A stretch of 64,000 nucleotides of DNA, from assembly GCA_963741075.1 (NCBI GenBank), contig CAVUGS010000012.1, positions 26,351-90,350 of the forward strand. Reading direction: 5' to 3'. Positions 8,779 to 45,838 of the stretch are shown here, one piece after another. A program made the position numbers and the translations under genes. The notes under the pieces are model-generated. The model was not told the DNA's origin. It searched no databases and saw nothing but the letters and a program-made list of their open reading frames with translations. Source of the DNA: an uncultured Thermoleophilia bacterium. Its GTDB lineage: Bacteria; Actinomycetota; Thermoleophilia; UBA2241. The stretch's first letter is position 1. The number at the start of each line of letters is the position of its first letter.

Positions 8779-10631
8779 CTACTTGACGACCTCGAACGGC
8801 CGCATCATGTCGTTCTCCTCGTGCTCGAGGATGTGGCAGTGATAGACCCAGTTGCCGTAGCTCCTGGTCTTCCAGTCGTAGTCCAGCAGCGACGTCACGG
8901 GCAGCGTGAACTTGGCCCGCGTCCTCGTCACCATGCCCGGGATAGGCCTTCACGGTGTCCTTGTAGCCCATCTCCTCTGGGGCCGGCGGGATCGGAGTCG
9001 CCGACCAGGTAGTCGCTGAGTCTGGGCTTGAGCAGCGGGTCCCGCCCGAGCCGTGTCGGACGCGAGGTAGGCTTCCCAAGCCGCCGTGTAGCCGTCGACG
9101 TCGATCGCCTGCCGGTTCACGACCTGGGATGCCACCAGGTGCGGGTGCATCGGGTGGGCGTCCACGGTCAGGTTGATCCAGCGCCAGGTCTCGGTGGTAC
9201 CGGCCTTGATGAAGTCGGTCGTCGGGTCCATGAAGTGGTAGCCGTTGAGCAGCACCTCGTCGGGACCTCTGCTCCGTACCGCGTCCGTGCGTTCTCCTTG
9301 GCGACGATGTCCCGCGGCGCGCACGCCCGGCGTCGCCGACCAGCCGCGGCACGGCCGGCAGCTTCAGCTTGGCGGGCGGCACGCTGCGTGTCGGGGTCGT
9401 TCGCCGGCACCGGCGTGTTGATGTTGATCTTCATGAGGTCGGCGACCTGCGGGGCGTCGCCGTCCGGATACGGCTCGTTGGCGTCGTTGTGTCATCATGA
9501 CTCGTGCTGCCGAGCGGCAGGCCGGTGAAGTCGACGATGACGTCGAAGCGCTCGCCGGGGGCGATCAGCAGCTGGGTCTTCTCACCGGCTTGGGCAGCAG
9601 GCCCTGCTCGGAGCCGATGACCCAGAACGGGAGGTCGCGCCGGCGCCCGTGTCGAAGCTCAGGTCGTAGAAGCGGGCCTGCGAGCCGTTCAGGAGGCGCA
9701 GCCGGTAGCGCCGCGGCTGCGCGTCCAGGTACGGATAGGCCTTGCCGTTGACGACCGGGGTGTCGCCGAAGAACTCGGGCACCCAGACCGGGTGGACGGG
9801 CGCTGATGCCCATCGGTCGGGTAGAACAGCGTGCCGTCGTCGTTGAACTGCTTGTCCTGGAGCACCAGCGGCAGGTGGTACTTGCCGTAGCCGGACGGGA
9901 CCTTCTGGCCGTTGATCGTCGTGCCGTTGTCGACCTTGTCGAAGATCAGGTAGGCGGCGGCCAGGCCGAGGTACGGCTTGAACCGCGTGGCCCCCATGGT
10001 GTGGTCGTGGTACCAGAGCAGCGACGCCGGCTGGTCGTTCACGTAGGTGAAGGTGTCGGTGACGTAGTCCTCGCCCTTCTGGCCGTCGGCCGTCCACCAC
10101 TGCATCGGGCGTGCCGTCGAAGCGCGCCGCGGTGTGCCCGCCGTGGAGGTGCGGGATCGCCGCGCCGGTCGGCACATCGACCCGGCGCTCCGGGGATCGT
10201 CGGGTCGATCGAGTCCTTGAGCGGGAAGGCGCTCGGGTCGGTCGGCAGGTTGTTGATGTACTTGACCACCACCGGCCTGCCCGATCTGCGCGACGATCGT
10301 CGGGCCGAGCAGGACGGGCGTCTTGCCCGGGCTGCCCGTACGTCCAGACGGTCGCCGGGCCCAGGCACTGAGTTGAACTGGTGCTGGCTGGCCGTCATGT
10401 TGATCTCGTAGTAGTCGGCCCAGCTGAGTAGGCCGGGTTGAAGGTCTTCTGCGCCACCGGCGGCACCGGCAGCGGGTCGACCCATTTGTCCATCGGCGGA
10501 CTGGCCTGTGCGGCTGCCGCGATGGCCAGGAGGCCGGCGGCCAGCAGGGCGACCGCAAGGACCACGAGGCCGGCGCGCTTCTTCCACCGCGTATCTGACC
10601 GGTGTGGACTCGTCGTGGAGTAGGTAGTCAT
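8779..10631 (-). CDS. Secreted CotA/bilirubin-oxidase-like multicopper oxidase (many frameshifts)
   Basis: All four Cu motifs are present: [28 protein letters not shown]. Sec-type signal peptide ending AAAQA. Confidence 0.9.
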
Positions 10632-16008: not shown

Positions 16009-17507
16009 ATGAGCAACGAAGCGGCCGACGGGCACGCCCGCACGCAGTCTCAAGCGGGCGCAGGTCCGCGTCATCACCGTCTTCTTCATGATCTACATCC
16101 TCGTGTCGGGCGGCTCGTTCGGCATCGAGGACATGGTGTCGTGGTCGGGACCGGGGCTCACGCTCCTGCTCCTGATCCTGCTGCCCGATCTTCTGGAGCC
16201 TGCCCATGGCGCTCATCGCCAGCGAGCTCGGCTCGGCGATCCCGGGCGAGGGCGGCTTCTACGTCTGGGCGCGCCGCGGCCCTGGGCGACTTCTGGGGCT
16301 TCCAGACGGCCTGGTGGTGGTCGCTCTCCATCTTCGTCGACTCGTCCGTGTACATCGTGCTCGCCGTCGGCTACCTGCAGAACTGGCTGCGACTTCAGCC
16401 AGCTGTGGTTCTACGTCATCTGCTGGGCGATCATCGCGGTGTTCGCGCTCATGAACATCATCGGCGTCAAGGTCATCGCGCTCAGCTCCACGCTGTTCTC
16501 GATGCATCATCCTGGCGCCGTTCTTCGTGCTCATCGTCGTCGGGCTGGCCAAGTGGAACTTCGACCCGCTCACGCCGGTCACGCGTGCCCGGCCGAGCCG
16601 TTCTTCGGCACCGGCGGGGTGTTCGCCCTGGGCCTGGCCATCGGCGTCTGGATGTACTCGGGCTACGAGTCGATGTCCACGCTGTCGGGCGAGATCCGCA
16701 ACCCGCAGAGGGTCATCCCCCGGGCGCTGATGCTGGCGGTGCCGTTCATCATCGTCATGTACGTGCTGCCCACGGTGGCGAGCCTCGCGGGCTACGGGCA
16801 CTGGGACACGCTTGGCGCCGTGGACGCCGGCGACGGCTACGTCTCGTTCGTCGAGATCGGCAAGGCGCTGGGCGGCTCGGCGCTCGGCGTGGCGCTGCTC
16901 GGTGTCGGCGCTGCTCGGCAACCTCGCGCTGTACCTGGACTACCTGGCGTCGGGGGCCCGGCCGCTCTTCGCGATCGCGGCGGACGGGCTGTTCCCCAGG
17001 TCCATCGCGCGCGTCAGCGGGCGCTTCGGCACGCCCGATCGCCGCCATCCTGCTGATGGCCGCGCTCAACGCGGTGCTCATCGTCGGGCCGTTCCAGAAC
17101 CTGGTCGTCATCGACGTGATCCTGTTCATCTCGGCCTACGTGCTCATCTTCATCTCGGCCGTGCGCCTGCGCGTCACCGAGCCGGACCTCAAGCGCCCGT
17201 TCCGCGTGCCGCTCGGGACCAAGGGGATGATCGCCATGGTGATCCCGCCCATCCTCATCGTCGTCGTTCACCATCTACGTCAACGCGATCGACCGCAGCA
17301 CCGAGCTCTTCGGCACGACCGGGCTTCAAGCTGCTCGGCCAGGACGTGGGCTGGTACGGCATCGCCGGGTTCGCGGCGCTGCTCTCGGGCCCGGTGCTGT
17401 ACTACCTCTTCCGGGCCATCTATGGTGGGCCGAGCACGCCGTCGCGCGGGGCCGGCGACGCGGCGATCGCCATCGCCGAGGCCGAGGCAGCGGAGGACGC
17501 GGCCTGA
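16009..17507 (+). CDS. APC family amino acid/polyamine permease (many frameshifts)
   Basis: GGSFGIED, ELGSAIPGEGGFYVW, WMYSGYES, GEIRNPQRVIPRA, RPFRVP. Confidence 0.88.
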
Positions 17508-18939
17508 TGCGAGACGCAGCATCCAGGTCCTCTCCGAGGACGAGAAGGCGCAGGTCCACGAGCGCACGCTCAAGGTGCTGAGCACCGTCGGCATGCGCTG
17601 CGACACGGCCGAGGGGCGCCGGATCCTCGCGGATGCCGGCGCCCACGTCGACGAGGCGACGCGCAGGGTCCGCTTTCCCGCCGAGCTGGTCGAGAGCCTG
17701 CTGGCGCAGGCGCGCACCGCTTCACCGTCCACGGCCGCCGGCCGGACTGGAGCTTCCCCGTCGGCGCCGGCGACTTCACGCTGCTGGCCGACGGCGGCGC
17801 CACTCGGTGTTCGACGCGCGGTCCGGCGAGCGCCGCCCCACCACCTTCGACGACTGGCGCGCCGCCACGCGGCTCCTCGACGCCTCGACGACGTCGGCTT
17901 CTACTGGTGTCCCATCGACTACTCCGCCGACTACGAGCGGCCCGGCGGCTTCGTGCGCTACTACACCGACGTCTTCGGCACCTTCGGCAAGCACGTGCAG
18001 GACTCGTTCGGCACGCCGGAGCTGGCGCCGTGGCTCAAGGAGGTGCTCGACATCGTGTTCGGCGGGCCGCAGGCGGTACGCGAGCGGCATGCCCATGTCG
18101 TTCCTCATCACGCCGGCCTCGCCGCTGACCATCGAGCACGACTACACGCAGACGTGGCTGGAACTGCGCGACTACGGTCTGCCGGTGGCGGTCATGCCGA
18201 TGCCGCTGCAGGGCGCGACGGCGCCCGGCAGCCGGCTCGGCACGCTGCTCGCCGCCAACTGCGAGACGATCGGCACGCTGTGCCTGGTCCAGGCGGCGGC
18301 CCGGGCACGCCGGTGTTCTACGCGCCGGTGGTGGCGACCATGGACCCGCGCACGGGGCTGTACGCCGCCGGCGCGATCGAGCACGCGGTGCTCTGCGTCG
18401 CCGGCACCGAGATGGCCCGCTACTACGGCCTGCCGGCCGAGTCCTCGGGCCTCTGCACGCAGACCTACGAGCCGGACCTGCAGACCGCCTGGGAGAAGGC
18501 CGACGGCGGGCTGCTCGTCGCGCTCGCCGGCCCGGACGTCCTCGTCGGTCCGGGCCTGCTCGGGGGCGCCACCATCCTGTGCCTCGAGCAGATCGTCCTC
18601 GACGTCGAGATGATCCGGCGCGCCCGCCGGGCGCGCGCCGGCATCCCGGTGCGCGACGACCTCTGGCTCGACGAGATCCTGGACAAGGTCGGGCCCTGCG
18701 GCTCGTTTCTCGGCGAGCGGTCCACGCGCATTGGCGTCCGCGCCGGCGAGTGGCGCCTCAGCGACTTCGGCGTGCAGGGCAGCTGGGACGCGTGGCGGGC
18801 GGCGGGGTCGCCGGGCACCGTCGCCGCCGCCCGCGAGCGCGTCGAGCAGATCCTCGCCGCGCAGGTCTCGCTGCCGTACAGCGAGGACCAGGCGGCGGCC
18901 CTCGCGGCGCTGCAGCGCCGCGCCGACGCCGCCTCCTGA
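17507..18939 (+). CDS. MttB-superfamily methyltransferase, non-pyrrolysine type (frameshifted)
   Basis: IQVLSEDEKAQVHERTLKVL, SPLTIEHD, MPMPLQGATAPGSRLGTLLAANCE, DLQTAWEK, LEQIVLD. Cys (TGC 18454-56) at the Pyl-equivalent site. TGATG-coupled to the permease. Confidence 0.88.
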
Positions 18940-35542: not shown

Positions 35543-36767
35543 CTACCGGCCTGCGTTCGCCGGTACGGGCTTCAGCCCCTCGGCGAACGCGATCAGCTCC
35601 TGGCGGGTGAGCGCGCCGGTGACGAAGACCGCCCGGCGCGCTCCGCGCGACGAACAGCGACGGCCCACTCTCCTGATACCAGGTGATGGCCGTCGCGCCC
35701 TTGAGCGCTCCGTACTGCAGCGTCGTCTGCTGACGCGAGAGCTTTCCGGTGCCGGCCTCGCTCTGCCAGTCGCGGACGGCGGCCAGCGAGCGCAGCGTGG
35801 CAGGTCCGACCTGTTCGACGGTGAACTGCGAGAGGCCGCGCGTGTACAGCTGCAGGACCGCGGTCCCGCGCAGGCCGACCGGCAGATTCCACACCTTGTC
35901 GCTGATCCAGCTCACGGGGCGAAGCTCGGCGGGCACGGTCGCGACGGCCCTGAGCTCGTAGCCGTCCGGCGCCAGGCCTGAGACGAGAGGGGCGTACCCG
36001 GCGGTGCGGCCCGCCGCCGCCGGGGACTCCTCGTAGGCCGCCGTGTCCCCGATCGTCTCCGCCTCAGTACCCGCCGGCACGTCGACCCTGTAGGTCGTGC
36101 CGGCCGGCGGCGGCGCGTCCCAGTCGACCGTCGCCGTGAACGTGTCCTCGCCGTCGCTGTACCAGGTGACGATGCCGGTCTGCTGGTCCACGACGACGTC
36201 GATCAGCTTGCCGCCCATCGTCATCGCCGCGCGCCAGGTGGCGCGGTCGCCGTCCTTGATCGGCTTGATGCCGACGGCCTCGTCGCCGTCCTCCACCGCC
36301 GTGAGCACGACCGCGGCCAGGCCCTGGTAGTCCAGCGGGCTGTGCGTCGCGACGCGCCAGACGGGCGGCCACGCGCCGACGGTGCGGGTCAGCGCGGCGA
36401 AACGTCCGCCGTTGCCGCCGAGGGTCGTCTCGGTGCGCGTGGCCGCATCGTAGGCCGACTGCGGCGGATGGTAGCTGAAGACCGTCTCGCCCTCGGGGAG
36501 CGCAGCTCTGCCGCCGGCGTTCCCACCGGCGACCGCGCTGAAGGCTCCGTCCTGTCCGACCTCGCCCGAGGACGGCCGCCAGGTGTACGTCCCCGCGATC
36601 CCGGTGACCACGGGTGCGGTCGCCGCCGGGCCCGAGCGCAGGAAGAACATCCACGCGAGGGCGAAGACGATGGCGAGCGCGACGAGGGTCACGGCGAAGC
36701 TCGGCGGGCGTCGGTTCACCCACGCCGCGCCGACCCTCCGGCTCATCCTCTGGGGCGGGGTCGCCAT
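35543..36767 (-). CDS. Membrane-anchored LolA/RseB-fold-like protein (frameshift near 35645)
   Basis: One TM, then a beta-rich ectodomain. C-terminal half is similar to the 47404-48900 product (PDGY/PRGY, YTRG/YRRG, GALTRQEL/GDLTRDEL). Confidence 0.6.
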
Positions 36768-37119: not shown

Positions 37120-37831
37120 ATGCCGTCACGTCGGGCGCTCGCCGCCCTTCTCGTCCTGCTCGTCGCGCTCGTCGCCGGCGCGGCCGTGGGCGCTTCGGCC
37201 GCCCGCGCCGTCACGCGCGACGAGCTCATGAAGACGAGCCTGCTCGCCCTGCAGTGCGCCATCGAGAAGAGCGGCTCCGCGCACATGTACGTCTACCCTC
37301 ACCCGAGCTCCGTCTCGCCGACGGGCGGCCTCGCCAGCGTCTTCTGGCCGCGCGACCCGTGGACCGGCGGGCGTCTCACGCCCGGCGCCTCGCAGGGGCA
37401 CTACGCCTACGTTCGCGCGACGGACTACCGGAGCTACCGGCTCACCGGCTACCTCAGCGGCGGAAGGACCTTCGTCGTCACCGGCGGCATGACGCACACG
37501 CCGATGCTGGCCTACGACCATCGCGGCAAGGAGGGGCTCAACCTCCTCTTCCAGTACGTCAAGATGTGGTCGCGCAGCGCACGACGGGCGTCTGCCCACG
37601 GCGGCGATGGTCACGCGCGAGGGATCCGTGGGCCGGCAGCGGCGCGACCTGCTCTGGCCCAGCAACCCGTGGGACCACGGGGCCATGGAGCAGCGCGCCG
37701 ATCGCGGCTCCTTCGGCTACGTCCGCTCGGCCGACGGCAAGACGTTCACCCTGAACCTTCATCAGGCCCTGAAAGAGGACTACGTCCTCCAGGGCACGGC
37801 AGCACAATCGACCGCGGGAGACAGACCGTGA
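37120..37831 (+). CDS. Secreted protein with two WPxNP pilin-head-like domains (frameshift near 37590)
   Basis: Signal peptide ending AARA. Domains contain YP..WPRDPWTG and WPSNPWDH. Colinear with the 40064-41095 product. Confidence 0.8.
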
Positions 37832-39297
37832 AGCGGAACCTGTTCGCCGGCCGCCGCAGGAGTGGCGGCCTCAAGTTGGACGTGTTCACCGAGGACGAGA
37901 TCCAGGACATCCACCTGTCGACGCTCGAGGTGCTCGAGCGCACCGGCGTGTGGGTGGAGCTGGACGAGGCGCTCGACATCTACAGCGACGGCGGGTGCGT
38001 CGTCGACCGCGAGTCGCACATCGTGCGCATCCCGCCGCACGTGGTCGAGGACGCCATCGCCAGCGCGCCGCCGAGCGTGGTGCTCTGCGGCCGCGACCCG
38101 AGGAACGACATCTGCCTGGAGCCGGGCCGCGTGGGCTTCAGCAACTTCGGCGAGGGCATCCAGGTCATCGACCCGCGCACGGGCGAGCTGAGGGCCTCGA
38201 CGAAGAAGGACCTCGGAGAGATCGCCCGTCTGGTGGACGCGCTGGACGAGGTCGACGTGTTCGAGATGGCCGTCGTCTCCAGCGACCAGCCGCCGGCGTC
38301 GTTCTCGCTGCACAACCACGAGGCGGCCATCGTCAACCAGACGAAGCCGATCTCGGGCGGCGCCCAGGACGGCGACGCCGTCCACCGCACGGTGGACATG
38401 CTCGCCGCCGTCCAGGGCAGCAAGGACGCCGTGCGCGAGCGGCCGATGATGGTCATGGGCACCTGCCCGGTCAGCCCGCTCAAGCTCGTCAAGGACTTCT
38501 GCGAGATCGTCATCGAGTCCGCCCGCGTCGGCCTGCCGAGCTGCGTGCTCAGCATGGCCATGGCCGGCGGCTCGAGCCCGGTGACGCTCGCCGGCACGCT
38601 GGTCACCCACAACGCCGAGGTGCTCGCCGGCATCGTCCTCGGCCAGCTCACCGAGCGCGGCAGCAAGCAGCTCTACGGCTCGTCGACGACGGCCATGGAC
38701 CTGCGGCTCGTCGCGGCCTCGGTCGGCACGCCGGAGTGCGCGCTGATCAGCGCCGGCGCGGCGCAGCTCGCCAGGCAGTACCGCCTGCCGAGCTACATCG
38801 CCGGTGCGTAGGGGGACAGCAAGCTCAGTGACGTGCAGACCGGTCACGAGAAGACCCTCACGGCCCTCATGGCAGCGTTGGCAGGGACCAACCTGATCTA
38901 CGGCCTGGGAATGATCGAGTCGGGCGTCACCTTCGATTACGCGCAGCTGGTCATCGACAACGAGATCGCGCGCATGGTCAAGCACGTCGTCGGCGGCGTG
39001 CGCGTCGACGACGAGTCTCTGGCGGTGGACGACATCGCCGCCGTCGGTTCGTTCGGCGACTTCCTCAGCCTGGACGCGACGATGCGCCACATGCGCGACA
39101 CGTCGCAGCCGGAGCTCATCGACCGCCGCGTGCGCGAAGACTGGGAGGCGCGCGGCTCCAGCGACATGTACCAGCGCGCGATGGAGAAGGCGCGCGGCCT
39201 CCTGGAGACGCACCAGCCCGAGCCGCTGCCGGACGACGTGCTCAGGCAGGTGCGGAGCATCGTCGACAAGGCGGACCGGGAGCGGGCGACCGACTGA
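37828..39297 (+). CDS. mttB: Trimethylamine:corrinoid methyltransferase with in-frame TAG (codon 328), predicted pyrrolysine
   Basis: YIAGA-TAG(38809-11)-GDSKLSDVQTGHEKT continues in frame to TGA 39297. 489 aa, MttB motifs on both sides of the TAG. Confidence 0.9.
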
Positions 39298-39342: not shown

Positions 39343-40044
39343 TCAGCCGCCCGGCGATGTGCTCAGCTGGCCGAGCACCGGGAGCGCGCCGAGGGTGGTC
39401 GACCACCAGCCGTTGGTCAGCATCACCCTGAGCGCGTAGGTCGCCCCGCCGCCCGTGTAGCTGAAGCAGCCCACGGTGGTCCCGGCGGCCATGTCTGCGC
39501 CGGTCCAGGGGTTCTTGGGCCAGATGAAGCTCGTGCCGAAGCCTGTGGCAGTGACGACGTCGGGGGTTGGGTACGCGCCGGCATGTGACGCCGCGTAGGC
39601 CTCGACGTAGCGTTGCAGCAGCAACAGGTTCTGCTTCGATGCCGTGTTGCGCTCCGGTTTGAACCAGGCGGGGACGCCGCCCGTCAGCGGCCAATTGCCG
39701 CTCGACAGGTGGACGACGAACCTGTACGTCGCGCCGCTGGCGCTCGGGGTGTACGTGTAGGTGCCTCGCGCGGTGCCGGGCCCCATGATCCTTCCGGTCC
39801 AGGGGTTGGACGGCCAGATGCTCGTCGAGCCGGGGAGCCCGCCGCCCTTCTTGACCATCGACTTCGGAGGATAGATGAAGCGGTTGTTCTGTCCGTAGTC
39901 GTTGATGTACTTCTGGATGAGGAGCGCGCCGGCCTGCACCTGCTTGTCGACGAAGCTCACGGCCTCGGCGCGGGGCGCCGCGGCGGCGAGGAGCAGGGCG
40001 AGCACGGCGGTCGCAAGGACGACGGCGATCATGCGTCTGGTCAC
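39343..40044 (-). CDS. Secreted protein with two WPxNP pilin-head-like domains
   Basis: Signal peptide ending AEA. YPP..WPSNPWTG and YPT..WPKNPWTG. Confidence 0.82.
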   Translation of the reverse strand: MTRRMIAVVLATAVLALLLAAAAPRAEAVSFVDKQVQAGALLIQKYINDYGQNNRFIYPPKSMVKKGGGLPGSTSIWPSNPWTGRIMGPGTARGTYTYTPSASGATYRFVVHLSSGNWPLTGGVPAWFKPERNTASKQNLLLLQRYVEAYAASHAGAYPTPDVVTATGFGTSFIWPKNPWTGADMAAGTTVGCFSYTGGGATYALRVMLTNGWWSTTLGALPVLGQLSTSPGG

Positions 40045-40063
40045 GGGGTGCCTCCTGTGGTGG

Positions 40064-41095
40064 TCAGGGCTCCGGGGTGCCGGAGCCGCGCGCCGGCGCC
40101 GCAGGCGACGGCGCGGTGCCGCCGGCCTGGAAGTCGCCGGAGTGAAGATGGACGGTGAGGGTGAAGACGCCGGCGGCGCCGGGTGCGTACGTGAAGGCGC
40201 CGGGGCCGGTGCCCGGCAGCATCGCGGCGCCGCTGCTCGGGTCCTGCGGCCAGTCGGGATGCGCCGCGCCGACGGCGGCCGTCGGCGACATCTCGGTGAC
40301 CCTGGGCAGGGCGCCGGCGTGCTGCAGCGCCCACTGGTCGACGTAGCCCTTGAGGATCCGCCCGCTGCGGCGCAGGATCTCGTCCTCCAGGCTGGCCAGC
40401 AGCTGCTGCCAGGGGCTGGTCCTGATGGTCCCGGTGAGCACGTAGTCGCCCTTGAGGGCGCGGTGCAGGCGCAGCCGGTACGACGACCTGTCGGGGGCGA
40501 CCGCGTACGAGAACGAGCCGCGGTCGCGGCGCTGCACCATGACGGAGTGGTTCCACGGATTGCTCGGCCAGTAGTGGTGCTTCGGCTCGTTGCCCACGGG
40601 GCCGTCCGCGCGCACCTCACCCGGCATCGGGTACACGCCGTCGTGCGCGGCGGCGTAGTCCTCAACGTACTGACGGATGAGGTTGATGCCCTCTTCGCTG
40701 CGGTGGTCGTAGGCGAGCTTGACGAAGTGTGGCATGCCTCCGGAGAGGACGAAGGTGCGGCCGCCCTCGAGATAGCCGACGAGGTGGTAGCGGCGGCGGT
40801 CGCGGTTCACCGTGTAGCGGAAGTGCCCGCGACTGGTGCCCGGCGTCAGGTCGGAGCCGGTCCAGGGATCGTCGGGCCACCACGAGCCGCCGAGGTGTCC
40901 GGCGCGGACGGACGGGCCCCGCGGGTACGTGAAGAAGCGCTCGGCGCCCTGCCGGTCGATGAGGCCGCGCAAGGCCATCACGGCCTGGCGCATCTCGTCG
41001 TCGGGGGAGGCGGCGCGGGCCGGCGCGGCAGCGCCCGCGCCGACGCAGGCCGCCGCGAGCAGCGCGGCGCAGAGGATGAGCGTGAGTCGGATCAT
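40064..41095 (-). CDS. Secreted protein with three WPxNP pilin-head-like domains
   Basis: Signal peptide ending ARA. WPDDPWTG, WPSNPWNH, WPQDPSSG. Confidence 0.82.
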   Translation of the reverse strand: MIRLTLILCAALLAAACVGAGAAAPARAASPDDEMRQAVMALRGLIDRQGAERFFTYPRGPSVRAGHLGGSWWPDDPWTGSDLTPGTSRGHFRYTVNRDRRRYHLVGYLEGGRTFVLSGGMPHFVKLAYDHRSEEGINLIRQYVEDYAAAHDGVYPMPGEVRADGPVGNEPKHHYWPSNPWNHSVMVQRRDRGSFSYAVAPDRSSYRLRLHRALKGDYVLTGTIRTSPWQQLLASLEDEILRRSGRILKGYVDQWALQHAGALPRVTEMSPTAAVGAAHPDWPQDPSSGAAMLPGTGPGAFTYAPGAAGVFTLTVHLHSGDFQAGGTAPSPAAPARGSGTPEP

Positions 41096-41253
41096 GTGCT
41101 TGGTGATGGCCCCTTCTTCCTCTCCAGTGTCGCCGCAGGTGCGAGACGGGTCAACTGCGCCGGACATTCGCGGCCACGCGCCTGCTGATACGATTCGCCC
41201 CGGGCGCCGCGGAGCCTGCGGCCGCGCATCACTCTTGAGGCAAGGAGTTGCCG

Positions 41254-42640
41254 GTGGAAGCGAAGATCCCGACCCGTATGGGCGACGGGTTCATGGTCGA
41301 GATGTCGCGCAGCGAGCTGCGCGCCGATCTGGAGGACGCGACGCAGGCGGCGGCGCGCAAGGCCAAGGTCCCGCCGCTCGCGCAGGACGAGCTCGACCAC
41401 CTCCTGGACATCTACGCCTCGCGCGCCGCGTTCACCGCCGTCGACATCGGCGACCAGGTGGTCCTCAGCTGCGACGGCGGCGGCAGCAAGATGACCGGCA
41501 CCGACCTCCTCGACCTGCTCGAGAGCGAGCAGCGCCTGGGCCAGGACATCCTCGAGCTCTGGCACATCGAGTACAGCTACAAGGCCATCAAGACGATCCT
41601 GCCGTTCCAGCAGCAGGTGATGCAGAACTGCCAGCTGATGATGACGGCGCCGGTGCAGTACGGCGCGCAGCCCAACCTCGCCTTCTACAGCAAGCCCGAC
41701 GGACCGGCGGAGAACTGGTTCGAGCTGCTGCCGCGCGGCGACATCGCCGGCGCCCGCGCGGCCATCGACGAGGCCATGGATCACGCCACCAAGGACTTCA
41801 TCTACGTGGGCGAGGGCATGCTGGACGCCGGCGCCGACGGCATGGACTTCGACACCACCGGCGGCGCCGGCGACGCCGACTTCTTCAGCACGCTCCGCGC
41901 GGTGAAGCACCTGCGCGAGCACTACCCGGACGCCGGCATCGAGGTCGGCATGGCCGGCGAGTTCGTGATCGGCGTCCACGGCGAGCTCGAGTGGGACGGC
42001 CGCCGGCTGGCCGGGCTCTGGCCGAAGGAGCAACTCGAGGTGTGCCAGGACGCCGGCGCCACCATCTTCGGGCCGGCGGTGAACATCCGCACCGGCAAGA
42101 GCTGCGCCTGGAACGCGGCCTACTCGATCACGGTGACCAAGCCGTGCATGGACGTCGCCCGCATCCCCGTGCACCCCAACGTGGGCGAGGGAGTGGGCGG
42201 CGTGCCGGTGAACGGCTACCCGCCCGAGGACGCGGCGTCCCGGGCGGCCAAGGCGCACGTCGACATCCTCAAGTGCGACGGGTTGTAGGTGGGCTCGGGT
42301 GACTCCAGAGGCATGGACGTCACCCACGCGCTCGCCGCGGGCATGGGCGGGATGCGCACGGCCGGAGACCTGGTCGCGCGCATGCAGATGGCCCGCGGGA
42401 TGCGTCTGGACGAGGCGAAGCGGATACGTGGCCGAGAGGCTCGGCTGCACCGTCCGCGACCTCAGCGACAGCTACGCGATGGAGCAGATCCGCGGCGAGA
42501 AAGGCCTGGGCCGGATCCTCGACCACTCCAACCTGCACCCGGGCGAGCCGAACGCGATGATGGCCAAGTTCCGCATCGCCGAGCTGCTCGGCGTGCCGAT
42601 CAGGTCGGTGGAACGCTTTCGGGAGCTGGCGGGGCTGTGA
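41254..42640 (+). CDS. mtbB: Dimethylamine:corrinoid methyltransferase with in-frame TAG (codon 345), predicted pyrrolysine; 1-nt frameshift near 42423
   Basis: RMGDG, YGAQPNL..PDGP.EN, GADGMDFDTTG, GMAGEF, LAGLWP, CDGL-TAG(42286-88)-VGSGD..GM..AGDLVARMQ match the MtbB family. SD AAGGAG. Confidence 0.88.
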
Positions 42641-42739
42641 CGGGGCCGCCGTGGGGGCGGGCGGTTCTTCGGATGCCCGCTTGACCTCACGTCGAACGCT
42701 GCCGATAGGGGTGGCAGCGACTCTGGAGGGCAAAGCGAG

Positions 42740-43123
42740 ATGAAGCGGATCACGAGCGTGGTGCTCGTCGCGTTGCTGGCGCTCGGCGCCGCGGCGGCTC
42801 TCGGCGGCTGCGGTCTGCAGGACCAGGCCGTGGAGAACACCAGCGGCAAGATCGACGTGGCCAAGGACGCCGCCGTCAAGGCGCAGCTGCTGATGATCAA
42901 GACGGGCATCCAGGCGTACATCGCGACGAGCAGCACGCCGCCGGCCGACGCGTCGCAGGCGACGCTGGGCAACTTCGTGAGCCCCTGGCCCACGAACCCC
43001 TTCTCCAACAAGCCGATGAAGCCGGGAGGGGGCGCGGGCGACTACGTCTACGCGCCCGGCGCCGGCGCCGCGTACACGCTGTCGGTCAATCTCTCCGACG
43101 GGACGCAGTACACGGCGCCGTGA
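42740..43123 (+). CDS. Lipoprotein with a single WPxNP pilin-head-like domain
   Basis: Lipobox LGGC. WPTNPFSNKPMKPGGGAGDYVY. Confidence 0.82.
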   Translation: MKRITSVVLVALLALGAAAALGGCGLQDQAVENTSGKIDVAKDAAVKAQLLMIKTGIQAYIATSSTPPADASQATLGNFVSPWPTNPFSNKPMKPGGGAGDYVYAPGAGAAYTLSVNLSDGTQYTAP

Positions 43124-43174
43124 TTTGAGGCCACCCTCGGCAATTGCTACCCTAGTCTGAAGAAGGGGGTCGGT

Positions 43175-44290
43175 GTGGTGGGGTTCTCGGGGAGCGGGTG
43201 GCGCGTGAGACTCGGGCTGGTGGCGCTGGGCGTCGCCTGCCTGATCGGCATCTCCATCCCCATCGCCATGGGCGGCGACTCCACGCCCACGTGGCAGCTC
43301 AAGAGCTACTACAGCCGCGGCGTGGACCGGAGCTTCAAGGCCGACCTCTACGAGGAGATGCCCAAGGTGCCGCGCGTGCTCGTCTTCGGCGGCTCGCGCA
43401 GCCTGCGCATGGACCCGGCCACCATCAAGCGCAAGACCGGCCTCACGGCGTTCAACTTCGGCGTCCACAACGGCCGCCCCGAGGACGCCTGGGCGGTCAC
43501 CGACTGGGCGCTGGACAGCCATCCCGACAAGCCCCCGGCGGTCATCTGGTGCATGCAGGCGACCACGCTGGCCGACGTACCCATGAACCCCGGCCTCATC
43601 GTCGACGAGCGCCTCTCCCAGGCGTTCCCGCAGTCACTCATCGACGCCAAGATGAGCTGGGCCATGAAGCAGCCCAAGCGCAACATCCTCTCCGGCCGCC
43701 GGTACGGCTTCGACGGCATGCTGTGGTGGAACAGCTATGACGCCAAACGCCAGGCGGGCCTCACGCTGCAGCGGTCCCTCGACGGCTACCTCGACGCCGA
43801 CATGCTGGCCAGGGCCGGCAACGGCAAGATCCCGCGCGACACGCGGTCCATGGCGTACTTCGTGCGGACCATCCGTCTGCTCAACAAGCACCGCATCAAG
43901 CCGCTCATCGTGATCATGCCGTACCATCCGCGGGCGCTCAGCGCGTTCCTCTCGGTGGGCTGGGGCGTCAAGGAGAGGTGGCTGAGGACCTACCTCTCCA
44001 AGCTGTCCGAGCACCTGGACTTCAGGGTGCTGAACTGCCTGCGGATCAGCACCTTCGGCGGCACGGCGAACGGGTTCTACGACGGCGCGCACCTCACCGC
44101 GGACAACTCGCGGCGGCTCATCCGCTACTGCATCGCGCACGCGCCGTCGTGCTTCAGGCTGCCCCCGCCGCCGAAGCCCACGCCGAGCCCGTCGCCGAGC
44201 TCGAGCGCGAGCCCGGCGCCGCTGGTGCCCGCCCCGGCGTACACGCCGGTGCCCGAGGACACGAGCGCCCCGGCGGACTTCCTCGAGTAG
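43175..44290 (+). CDS. Exported SGNH/DltD-AlgX-like protein with Pro/Ser tail
   Basis: N-terminal TM/signal, VLVFGGSRS (block I), FYDGAHL (DxxH). TAG stop. Confidence 0.6.
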   Translation: MVGFSGSGWRVRLGLVALGVACLIGISIPIAMGGDSTPTWQLKSYYSRGVDRSFKADLYEEMPKVPRVLVFGGSRSLRMDPATIKRKTGLTAFNFGVHNGRPEDAWAVTDWALDSHPDKPPAVIWCMQATTLADVPMNPGLIVDERLSQAFPQSLIDAKMSWAMKQPKRNILSGRRYGFDGMLWWNSYDAKRQAGLTLQRSLDGYLDADMLARAGNGKIPRDTRSMAYFVRTIRLLNKHRIKPLIVIMPYHPRALSAFLSVGWGVKERWLRTYLSKLSEHLDFRVLNCLRISTFGGTANGFYDGAHLTADNSRRLIRYCIAHAPSCFRLPPPPKPTPSPSPSSSASPAPLVPAPAYTPVPEDTSAPADFLE

Positions 44291-44344: not shown

Positions 44345-45721
44345 TCAGGCGCCGATCAGCTTCTTGACGCAGGTCGCCCGCTTGCTCGGGCGCCCCGTCC
44401 GCGCCTCCACGTCGTCGGCGCTCCCCATGGCCTTGAGCGCCGCGTTCACGCCGATCCAGCGCAGCGGCTCGGGCTCCCAGGCCCTGGAGCGGTGGTTGAC
44501 CCAAGGCAGCCGGGTGAGCTCCGTCTCCTGTCGGAGGATGAGGTCGCGCAGCGTGCGGGCGGCGAGGTTCGTCGTCGACACGCCGTCGCCGACGTAGGCG
44601 CCGGCCCAGGCCATGCCGGAGTCGCGGTCCAGGCCGACCGAGGTGTACCAGTCGCGGGGGGCCGCGACCGCCCCTCCCCAGTGGTGGGTGACCTTCGCGT
44701 CGCCGATGGCGGGGAAGAGCTCACCGAGCAGGGAGCGGAGGTGGTCGCGGACGGCCGGGTCGCGTTCGTAGGCCTCGCTCAGGCGGGAGCCGAAGTGATA
44801 CGGGGCGCCGCGCCCGCCGATGGCGATGCGGCCGTCCTCGGTGCGCATGGCGTAGAAGATGAGGAAGCGGAAGTCGCCGAAGACCTCGCGCCGGGACCAG
44901 CCGACCTCGTCCCAGAAGGCCGCGGGGAGCGGTTCCGTGCCGATCATCAGCGAGTAGATCGGCACCAGCGTGCGCTCGTAGCCGGGGAGCTCGGGCGTGA
45001 ACGCCTCGGTGGCGCGCACGACGACGTCGGCGCGCACGTCGCCAAGCGCGGTGGCGGCGAGGTGGGGCTCGAGCCTGGTGACCGGGGTGTGCTCGTAGAT
45101 GGGCACCCCCAGGCCTTCGACGACGTCGGCGAGCCCGCGGGCCAGCCGGGCCGGGTCCACACAGGCGCCGTGCGGCGTGTACGTGGCGCCCAGACACCCG
45201 GCCACCTTGACGCGCTCGCGCATGTCGGCGGCGCCGAGCAGGACGTAGTCCTCCTCGCCGAAGCCCCACGAGCGCTCGTACTCGATCTCCCTGCGGGCGC
45301 GCAGCAACTGGACCGGCGTGAGTGCGAGGTCCATCTGGCCGCCGAGGTGGAAGCGCGCGTCGATGCCCTCTTCGTCCACGACGCGCGCGACCTCGTACAC
45401 GGTGCGGTGCAGGGCGCGCTGCTGGTCGACGACCGCCTGCCGCCCGTGCGTCCGGGCCGCCAGCTCACGGGAGCCGGGGAAGGTGGTGTGGCACCAGCCG
45501 CCGTTGCGTCCCGAGGCTCCGAAGCCGGCGATCTCGCGCTCGAGCACGGCCACGCGCAGGTGCGGGTCGGCCTTCTTGAGGTAGTAGGCCGTCCACAGAC
45601 CGGTGTAGCCGGCGCCGACGATGGCGACATCCACGTCGGTGTCGCCGGGGAGCGAGGGACGCGGGGCGAGCTCGCCGGGGATGCCGTCGAGCCACATGCT
45701 GCGCGCGCGGTAGTCGGTCAT
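44345..45721 (-). CDS. FAD-dependent oxidoreductase (PuuB/DadA-like)
   Basis: DVAIVGAGYTGLWTA, GASGRNGG, HHWGG, YVGDGV. Confidence 0.88.
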   Translation of the reverse strand: MTDYRARSMWLDGIPGELAPRPSLPGDTDVDVAIVGAGYTGLWTAYYLKKADPHLRVAVLEREIAGFGASGRNGGWCHTTFPGSRELAARTHGRQAVVDQQRALHRTVYEVARVVDEEGIDARFHLGGQMDLALTPVQLLRARREIEYERSWGFGEEDYVLLGAADMRERVKVAGCLGATYTPHGACVDPARLARGLADVVEGLGVPIYEHTPVTRLEPHLAATALGDVRADVVVRATEAFTPELPGYERTLVPIYSLMIGTEPLPAAFWDEVGWSRREVFGDFRFLIFYAMRTEDGRIAIGGRGAPYHFGSRLSEAYERDPAVRDHLRSLLGELFPAIGDAKVTHHWGGAVAAPRDWYTSVGLDRDSGMAWAGAYVGDGVSTTNLAARTLRDLILRQETELTRLPWVNHRSRAWEPEPLRWIGVNAALKAMGSADDVEARTGRPSKRATCVKKLIGA

Positions 45722-45838
45722 GTCGGGCTCCTTCGAGGGTGGACCGATGCTAACAAACGCGTCGACGGTGCGGCAGACCGCCGAGTTTGCCCGGTGGAAC
45801 AAAGAGTGCGACGGCGACTCGCCCGGGAGGTGAGCACG

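What the first reader, a model, noticed from the sequence alone, without database searches (positions are those of the whole stretch)
41254..42640. Second Pyl enzyme: dimethylamine methyltransferase MtbB with amber at the conserved site
Seen: KCDGL-TAG(42286-88)-VGSGDSRGMDVTHALAAGMGGMRTAGDLVARMQ in one frame, and full-length MtbB similarity once a single +1 indel near 42423 is corrected. Established: methanogen MtbB has VDGI-O-IGVGD..GM..AAGDLVARM (Pyl about residue 356), and MtbB and MttB are not homologous. Two unrelated families with TAG at their own Pyl sites, 3.5 kb apart, is strong independent support for real recoding. Together they imply TMA to DMA to MMA demethylation.
Basis: partly seen in the sequence, partly recalled or inferred. 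Interest (0 to 1): 0.86.

Follow-up and report, generated by a model that had tools for sequence, protein, structure and literature searches.

The report
Pyrrolysine-type dimethylamine methyltransferase gene, assembly-broken
This is a genuine gene for a pyrrolysine-containing dimethylamine methyltransferase in an uncultured soil actinobacterium (class Thermoleophilia); its one reading-frame break is almost certainly a sequencing-consensus error, and this gene type has already been reported in the phylum.

Summary
Window 41254-42640 encodes an MtbB-family protein (PF09505, 456 bits) with one in-frame TAG at 42286-88. The last 71 codons sit in another frame because of one extra base, A42423.

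- **TAG site.** All 8 MtbB paralogues in this genome and 40 frame-intact orthologues in other genomes carry the TAG in the same motif (DGL-O-VGxGD). The Rfam model for the mtbB pyrrolysine insertion sequence (RF02509) matches from exactly that TAG.
- **Decoding machinery.** The genome has tRNA-Pyl(CUA), pylB, pylC, pylD and pylS. It also has mtmB, many corrinoid proteins, RamA-like activases and an acetyl-CoA synthase cluster.
- **Frameshift.** It is best read as an assembly error. My frame tracker finds about 1500 stop-less frame switches in this genome, 10-40 times the rate in two same-genus controls. No orthologue shares the insertion. The shifted C-terminus still evolves mostly by synonymous change. 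Similar private 1-nt insertions occur only in Nanopore-only MAGs.
- **Novelty.** Pyl-encoding mtbB and mttB in Actinobacteriota MAGs were reported in 2023, so this is a new member of a known kind. Interest is modest.

The parts
41242..41247 (+). Shine-Dalgarno-like AAGGAG, 6 nt upstream of the GTG start
   Evidence: Read directly from the sequence. Orthologues start at the same codon, M-E-x-[KR]-I-P-T-R-M-G-D-G.
41254..42285 (+). mtbB codons 1-344, upstream of the Pyl codon
   Evidence: PF09505 455.9 bits and TIGR02368 348.2 bits. Identity to orthologues in Thermoleophilia MAGs is 81-97%.
42286..42288 (+). In-frame TAG, codon 345, the predicted pyrrolysine codon
   Evidence: Same column in 8 of 8 paralogues and at codon 345 in 43 of 50 orthologues; the other 7 are frame-broken upstream of it. 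It aligns to model positions 1-3 (UAG) of Rfam RF02509.
42286..42385 (+). PYLIS_2 (RF02509) match: two hairpins in the coding sequence just after the UAG. Helix 2 is at about 42352-42383.
   Evidence: 60.5 bits against a gathering score of 36, E=2.9e-13, model 1-100. Fold is -63.8 kcal/mol, z=-3.75. Helix 2 is 96.6% paired, with compensatory changes at 4 pairs.
42289..42422 (+). mtbB codons 346-390, same frame as the N-terminal part
42423..42423 (+). Extra A that shifts the frame; probably a consensus error
   Evidence: Absent from all 50 orthologues. L039 has identical flanks without it. The frame tracker switches here.
42424..42640 (+). mtbB codons 391-461 plus the TGA stop (42638-42640), in the +1 frame as assembled
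   Evidence: PF09505 profile 399-462. There are 5-7 synonymous against 1-2 nonsynonymous codon differences to the nearest relatives.
37828..39297 (+). Neighbouring Pyl-type mttB, with TAG at 38809-38811 and a PYLIS_3 match at 38809-38908
   Evidence: TIGR02369 gives 442.2 + 220.6 bits in two in-frame pieces. RF02510 gives 64.8 bits.

Best explanation
Window 41254-42640 is a real mtbB gene. It encodes a dimethylamine:corrinoid methyltransferase whose codon 345 (UAG) is translated as pyrrolysine. It is one of eight MtbB paralogues in an uncultured Thermoleophilia genome.

Shown here:
- family membership;
- the conserved UAG position;
- a covarying mRNA hairpin region after the UAG (Rfam PYLIS_2);
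- a full Pyl toolkit in the genome: tRNA-Pyl(CUA), PylS, PylB, PylC, PylD;
- the downstream parts of a methylamine pathway: mttB, mtmB, corrinoid proteins, RamA-like activases, URO-D-type and pterin-binding methyltransferases, and acetyl-CoA synthase.

Inferred from established biochemistry of the methanogen enzymes:
- Pyl binds and activates dimethylamine so that one methyl group passes to Co(I) of a corrinoid protein encoded elsewhere in the genome, releasing monomethylamine.
- A second methyltransferase then passes the methyl group on, probably to tetrahydrofolate.
- With MttB and MtmB this gives stepwise TMA to DMA to MMA to ammonia demethylation.

The single extra A at 42423 that breaks the frame is a consensus (assembly) error, not biology.
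For: Family membership:
- PF09505 455.9 + 43.8 bits in two frames.
- The read-through protein scores TIGR02368 394.8 bits against a cut-off of 369.1.

UAG site:
- Same motif in 8 of 8 paralogues that are only 43-69% identical to each other.
- 40 of 50 orthologues have TAG at codon 345 and a stop at codon 462-463.
- RF02509 matches from the TAG in all 8 copies.

Decoding machinery:
- tRNA-Pyl(CUA) with a 6-bp anticodon stem and a 3-nt variable loop.
- pylB, pylC, pylD and pylS at 323.6 bits.
- pylS co-occurs with mtbB in 19 of 20 mtbB-positive relatives and in 0 of 11 mtbB-negative ones.

Pathway parts.

Frameshift as artefact:
- 1509 stop-less frame switches genome-wide, 5.0 per 10 kb coding, against 0.12 and 0.46 in same-genus controls.
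- pylB, mtmB and acsB are also split.
- The insertion is private to this assembly.
- Frame-breaking 1-nt insertions occur in 9 of 35 Nanopore-only 'MFD' orthologues against 0 of 16 others, p=0.043 (PMC12313526).
- The C-terminal 71 codons show 5-7 synonymous against 1-2 nonsynonymous differences.
Against: - No reads could be examined, so A42423 is not directly disproved.
- The inserted A is not a homopolymer extension.
- With eight paralogues, loss of one copy would be tolerated.
- pylS and the pylBCD-pylT cluster lie on other contigs of a MAG that is 67% complete.
- No corrinoid protein, MT2 or RamA gene is adjacent to this copy.
- Pyl incorporation and DMA specificity are inferred from homology, not measured.
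- The motif after Pyl (VGSGDSRGM) differs from the commoner VGVGDPLGM.
Confidence: 0.85

Rival explanations
1. The frameshift is real. This copy is a very recent pseudogene, one of eight redundant mtbB paralogues, and it yields a protein with a scrambled C-terminal 72 residues.
For: The base is in the assembly. Two of eight paralogues are frame-broken. Redundancy would relax selection on any one copy.
Against: About 1500 similar breaks occur genome-wide, including in pylB, acsB and mtmB, at 10-40 times the rate of the controls. The post-shift frame is open to the normal stop, with a synonymous-dominated divergence pattern. No orthologue shares the insertion.
Confidence: 0.1
2. TAG 42286 is an ordinary stop. 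The locus then encodes a truncated 344-residue protein, and the downstream similarity is a relic.
For: TAG ends about 22% of ordinary genes in this genome, so UAG is not fully reassigned.
Against: The downstream frame is conserved at the protein level in 40+ genomes with one TAG only. A complete Pyl toolkit co-occurs with the gene. A covarying PYLIS_2 structure follows the TAG. Expression of Pyl-type mtbB in Actinobacteriota is reported (PMC10805028).
Confidence: 0.03
3. The shift at 42423 is a programmed ribosomal frameshift that forms part of the gene's expression.
For: Both frames are open across the site.
Against: No orthologue or paralogue has a shift at this site; all read straight through. 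There is no slippery motif at AAG-CGG-A-TAC.
Confidence: 0.01

Closest known systems
Methanosarcina barkeri MtbB1-3, dimethylamine:corrinoid methyltransferase (PF09505 / TIGR02368)
   Same: Full-length family match above the equivalog cut-off. There is a single in-frame UAG at the family's Pyl position. The motif DG-[LI]-O-[VI]-G-x-G-D...GM...AGDLVARM is shared, and the Rfam consensus from the UAG reads O-I-G-V-G-D-P.
   Different: The host is bacterial (Thermoleophilia, 70% GC), so the methyl acceptor is probably tetrahydrofolate and not coenzyme M. The motif after Pyl is VGSGDSRGM. No corrinoid gene is adjacent. TAG is still used for 22% of ordinary stops.
Pyl-encoding mttB/mtbB of Actinobacteriota MAGs from Stordalen Mire (Ellenbogen et al. 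2023, PMC10805028)
   Same: Same phylum and the same gene pair. One orthologue found here, L065 (86% identical), comes from a Stordalen palsa MAG and has mttB directly upstream.
   Different: The paper reports presence and expression only. It gives no analysis of paralogue number, PYLIS structure or Pyl machinery for this genus.
Rfam RF02509 PYLIS_2 (pyrrolysine insertion sequence of mtbB)
   Same: The match covers the whole 100-nt model from the UAG, at 60.5 bits. Helix 2 is kept by compensatory changes at synonymous sites.
   Different: Any role in recoding is unproven for mtbB. The match partly reflects conserved coding sequence.
Bacterial Pyl systems of Desulfitobacterium, Acetohalobium and Bilophila (pylTScBCDSn with mttB/mttC)
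   Same: UAG is read as Pyl in a bacterium, supported by pylT, pylS, pylB, pylC and pylD.
   Different: The phylum differs. Here pylB-pylC-pylD-pylT sit on one contig and pylS on another. MtbB, not MttB, is the expanded family, with 8 copies.

Membership tests
MtbB (PF09505 Dimeth_Pyl / TIGR02368 dimeth_PyL) | Full-length sequence match above the curated cut-off | tested here: met
   PF09505 455.9 bits against a cut-off of 25. With A42423 skipped, TIGR02368 scores 394.8 bits against a cut-off of 369.1 in one stretch, 5-457.
MtbB (PF09505 Dimeth_Pyl / TIGR02368 dimeth_PyL) | Single in-frame UAG at the family's pyrrolysine position | tested here: met
   TAG 42286-88 aligns to UAG at positions 1-3 of RF02509. 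It is in the same column in 8 paralogues and at codon 345 in 43 of 50 orthologues.
MtbB (PF09505 Dimeth_Pyl / TIGR02368 dimeth_PyL) | Reading frame otherwise uninterrupted (a functional gene) | tested here: inconclusive
   As assembled, one extra A at 42423 breaks the frame. Genome-wide indel excess, private occurrence and the synonymous/nonsynonymous pattern all point to an artefact. Reads were not available.
MtbB (PF09505 Dimeth_Pyl / TIGR02368 dimeth_PyL) | Pyl biosynthesis and decoding genes in the same genome | tested here: met
   tRNA-Pyl(CUA) at C19:227364-227436. PylC scores 343 bits, PylD 196 bits, and PylB 103 + 325 bits in two frames. PylS scores 323.6 bits. pylS co-occurs with mtbB across relatives.
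MtbB (PF09505 Dimeth_Pyl / TIGR02368 dimeth_PyL) | Cognate corrinoid protein, second methyltransferase and reductive activase | tested here: met
   The genome has 16 B12-binding_2 matches, 8 URO-D matches and 3 RACo/RamA loci. None lies next to this copy.
MtbB (PF09505 Dimeth_Pyl / TIGR02368 dimeth_PyL) | Dimethylamine-dependent methylation of a corrinoid protein; Pyl present in the protein | not testable with these tools
   This needs an enzyme assay and mass spectrometry.
PYLIS_2 (Rfam RF02509) | Covariance-model match above the gathering score, starting at the UAG | tested here: met
   60.5 bits against 36, model positions 1-100 at 42286-42385.
PYLIS_2 (Rfam RF02509) | Base pairs maintained by compensatory change | tested here: met
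   Helix 2 is 96.6% paired and has 4 pairs with changes on both sides. The covariation score for the two-helix structure is 0.182 against 0.079 in shuffles (0 of 500 reach it) and at most 0.038 when the partners are slid. Helix 1 is weaker, 90.5% paired, and is poorly kept in the paralogues.
Programmed ribosomal frameshift site | Shift site conserved in orthologues | tested here: not met
   None of the 50 orthologues has an indel at this position.

The most novel reading that the evidence does not exclude
In this orthologue group one mRNA often carries UAG twice. The internal UAG at codon 345 is read as Pyl and is followed by a covarying hairpin region (PYLIS_2). In 25 of 31 intact orthologues the terminator is also UAG, with no nearby back-up stop; in this window it is TGA. 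These bacteria keep TAG as about 22% of ordinary stops. The downstream structure could therefore be a true cis-acting signal that favours Pyl insertion over termination. That would make decoding context-dependent rather than a simple competition.
Probability: 0.2. Interest if true: 0.55.

Novelty: new member of a known kind. Interest (0 to 1): 0.3.

Why it matters
- **Ecology.** The gene adds to the evidence that an abundant, uncultured soil and peat actinobacterial genus uses the 22nd amino acid to strip methyl groups from methylamines. This bears on nitrogen and one-carbon cycling and on competition with methylotrophic methanogens.
- **Annotation.** Two hazards stack in one gene here: a recoded stop and a long-read indel. 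Either one makes standard pipelines call fragments.
- **Discovery value.** The family, the recoding, the RNA element and the presence of Pyl-type mtbB in this phylum are all already described, so the discovery value is modest.

Tried and rejected
- **PDB by sequence.** No MtbB relative has a solved structure.
- **Structure prediction.** An AlphaFold model of the intact orthologue L039 (pLDDT 74.6, pTM 0.80) searched against the PDB gave only weak TIM-barrel matches: HisF, BHMT and IMPDH, with E of 5e-3 or worse and TM 0.2-0.4. This fits a barrel fold but does not inform membership.
- **Synonymous-site conservation after the TAG.** It is low (0.25 against a gene mean of 0.57) but not the lowest in the gene; codons 95-105 are lower. 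I therefore relied on covariation instead.
- **Pfam scans of the flanking ORFs.** The ORFs at 35631-36698, 37138-37795, 39364-41110 and 42737-44140 gave no hits, so no partner gene could be assigned locally.
- **In-frame stop count.** Genome-wide, TAG interrupts coding segments 41 times and TGA 97 times. This is only a slight TAG excess over terminal usage, too noisy to define a pyrroproteome.
- **Mis-specified queries.** One ncbifam query of the pylS locus used wrong coordinates and returned nothing. The genome search hit stands.
- **Programmed frameshift.** Rejected, because no orthologue has a shift at the site.

Full report
**1. Observation**

The frame that opens at GTG 41254 is preceded by AAGGAG at 41242-47. 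Pfam PF09505 (Dimeth_Pyl) matches residues 6-390 of this frame to profile positions 4-399 (455.9 bits). The remaining profile positions, 399-462, match the ORF 42299-42640 in the next frame (43.8 bits). NCBIfam TIGR02368 behaves the same way. The gene is therefore complete except for a 1-nt shift at profile position 399.

Alignment with four metagenomic relatives (83-93% amino-acid identity), and later with 50 orthologues, shows one extra base in the window. L039 reads AAGCGG-TACGTGGCCGAGAGGCTCGG and the window reads AAGCGGATACGTGGCCGAGAGGCTCGG.

**2. The TAG is the family's pyrrolysine codon**

- The genome (3.33 Mb, 29 contigs, 70% GC, 67% complete) holds eight PF09505 loci, each with exactly one TAG. 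Six are intact and two are frame-broken.
- In all eight the TAG sits in DG[LY]-TAG-[VI]GxGD, although the paralogues are only 43-69% identical to one another.
- The Rfam covariance model RF02509 (PYLIS_2, 'pyrrolysine insertion sequence mtbB') has UAG as its first three positions. It matches window 42286-42385 over its full length (60.5 bits against a gathering score of 36), and it matches all seven other copies from their TAGs.
- RF02510 (PYLIS_3, mttB) matches from TAG 38809 of the neighbouring mttB.
- Of 50 orthologues in other species' genomes, 40 have TAG at codon 345 and the terminator at codon 462-463. The other 10 are frame-broken elsewhere.
- All 18 same-genus genomes carry MtbB genes with one TAG, against 1 of 12 other genomes in the class.

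**3. Decoding machinery**

- ARAGORN finds a tRNA-Pyl(CUA) at C19:227364-227436. It has the 6-bp anticodon stem, 3-nt variable loop and small D-arm typical of tRNA-Pyl; that these features are typical is established knowledge.
- Directly upstream of it lie pylB, pylC (343 bits) and pylD (196 bits).
- pylB is itself split into two frames by an apparent 1-nt deletion.
- The catalytic domain of PylS is at C29:60-785 (323.6 bits against a cut-off of 178).
- pylS is present in 17 of 18 same-genus genomes and in the one other mtbB-positive genome. It is absent from all 11 mtbB-negative genomes. This argues against a binning artefact.

**4. Pathway context**

- No corrinoid, MT2 or RamA gene flanks this copy. 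The neighbours have no Pfam hit, or are a DAO-family oxidoreductase, a SAM methyltransferase and a zinc alcohol dehydrogenase.
- Elsewhere the genome has:
  - mtmB, in three frame pieces;
  - 16 B12-binding_2 matches, one directly after the best MtbB copy;
  - three RACo/RamA loci;
  - eight URO-D-family matches;
  - pterin-binding methyltransferases;
  - an acetyl-CoA synthase, also frame-split.
The chemistry itself is inferred from the methanogen enzymes.

**5. The frameshift**

Four indirect lines agree that the shift is a consensus error.

- (a) I trained a codon log-likelihood model on this genome and tracked the coding frame with a Viterbi pass.
  - I counted same-strand frame switches with no stop codon within 45 nt.
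  - G000 has 1509 such switches, or 5.0 per 10 kb of coding sequence. In 244 kb and 108 kb of two same-genus genomes the rates are 0.12 and 0.46.
  - The tracker places a switch at 42423/42425. That switch was not even counted, because one flank was shorter than 40 codons, so the total is conservative.
- (b) The insertion is private to this assembly. In the orthologue set, all frame-breaking events are private 1-nt insertions at different sites. They occur in 9 of 35 'MFD' MAGs and in 0 of 16 other MAGs (Fisher p=0.043). The MFD MAGs come from Nanopore-only assemblies polished once with Medaka (PMC12313526).
- (c) After the shift, codons 391-461 differ from the nearest relatives by 5-7 synonymous against 1-2 nonsynonymous codons, a ratio at least as synonymous-dominated as in the N-terminal part. 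The frame has therefore been under purifying selection up to the present.
- (d) With the A skipped, the protein passes the equivalog cut-off.

A very recent real mutation cannot be excluded. I give it about 10%.

**6. RNA element**

The 100 nt after the UAG have the most stable consensus fold of any window in the gene (RNAalifold -36.7, about 4 SD below the gene mean). The window's own sequence folds with z=-3.75.

On 39 orthologue and paralogue sequences, helix 2 (columns 67-98 of the alignment, about 42352-42383 in the window) is 96.6% paired. It shows compensatory changes at third-codon positions:
- pair 75/90: GC 23, CG 5, UA 4, UG 2, none unpaired;
- pair 69/96: GC 20, CG 11.

Shuffled and slid controls score far lower. 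This structure is already in Rfam, and a canonical mtbB structure was predicted in 2013 (PMC3639795), so it is confirmation and not discovery.

TAG ends about 22% of ordinary genes in this genome. In addition, 25 of 31 intact orthologues of this gene also terminate in TAG. This leaves open a context-dependent decoding role for the element.

**7. Comparison and novelty**

- The closest characterised relatives are the Methanosarcina MtbB enzymes.
- No MtbB structure is in the PDB by sequence.
- A model of an intact orthologue gives only weak TIM-barrel matches.
- Ellenbogen et al. [quoted passage not shown] One orthologue here, L065, is from a Stordalen palsa MAG with mttB directly upstream.
- Earlier notes of this scan on other pieces of the same genome reached the same reading, and I checked their main claims independently.

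**Verdict.** The gene is a new member of a known kind. The frameshift is an assembly artefact with about 0.88 probability. Interest is 0.3.

Noticed in passing
L001:10490-10512 (G000 C19, about 224.5 kb): pylB is split into two frames (TIGR03910 profile 7-106 and 107-345). The cause looks like a 1-nt deletion in ...GTC CTC (C)TG GAC CTG ACG ATG.... This is another likely consensus error, in an essential Pyl gene.
   Followed up: partly
L036-L087 (orthologues), codon 462: 25 of 31 intact orthologues of this mtbB end in TAG, the same codon that encodes Pyl 117 codons upstream. The next in-frame stop is 9-190 codons further on. In the window the terminator is TGA.
   Followed up: partly
window 8782-10583 and 16049-18292: In these stretches the coding frame switches every 60-300 nt without stops. 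They are the densest indel-error regions of the window. Across the genome, contigs differ widely, from 0 events on C1 and C23 to 9 per 10 kb on C18.
   Followed up: partly
window 39364-41110 (-): Two genes of about 234 and 348 codons on the opposite strand lie between mttB and mtbB. The second begins with a signal-peptide-like sequence. Neither has a Pfam hit. The same pair precedes mtbB in relative L004, whereas in L005 and L006 mttB and mtbB are directly adjacent.
   Followed up: no
window 42740-43123 and 43127-44140 (+): Directly downstream of mtbB is a small lipoprotein-like gene (MKRITSVVLVALLALGAAAALGGC...), followed by a 338-codon gene. Neither has a Pfam hit.
   Followed up: no
window 44348-45772 (-): An FAD-dependent oxidoreductase of the DAO family (PF01266, 186 bits) lies close to the methylamine genes. 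It could be an amine or sarcosine-type oxidase.
   Followed up: no
G000 C13:17225-28789: This looks like the core methylamine island. It holds a RamA-like gene, mtmB (in three frame pieces) followed by a corrinoid protein, and then the best-scoring mtbB (656.7 bits) followed by a corrinoid protein.
   Followed up: partly
G000 C15:140402-147448: A Wood-Ljungdahl-type cluster: a pterin-binding methyltransferase, a RACo-like activase and CdhC/AcsB. AcsB is split into three frame pieces.
   Followed up: no
G004 (same-genus genome): This genome has three listed MtbB matches, each with one TAG, but no pylS match at E<=1e-20, although it is 93% complete. Either pylS is in an assembly gap or this is a lineage losing Pyl decoding.
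   Followed up: no
window 42289-42315: This orthologue group has the invariant motif O-VGSGDSRGMDVTH, where most paralogues have O-VGVGDPLGM. It may mark a specificity variant.
   Followed up: no
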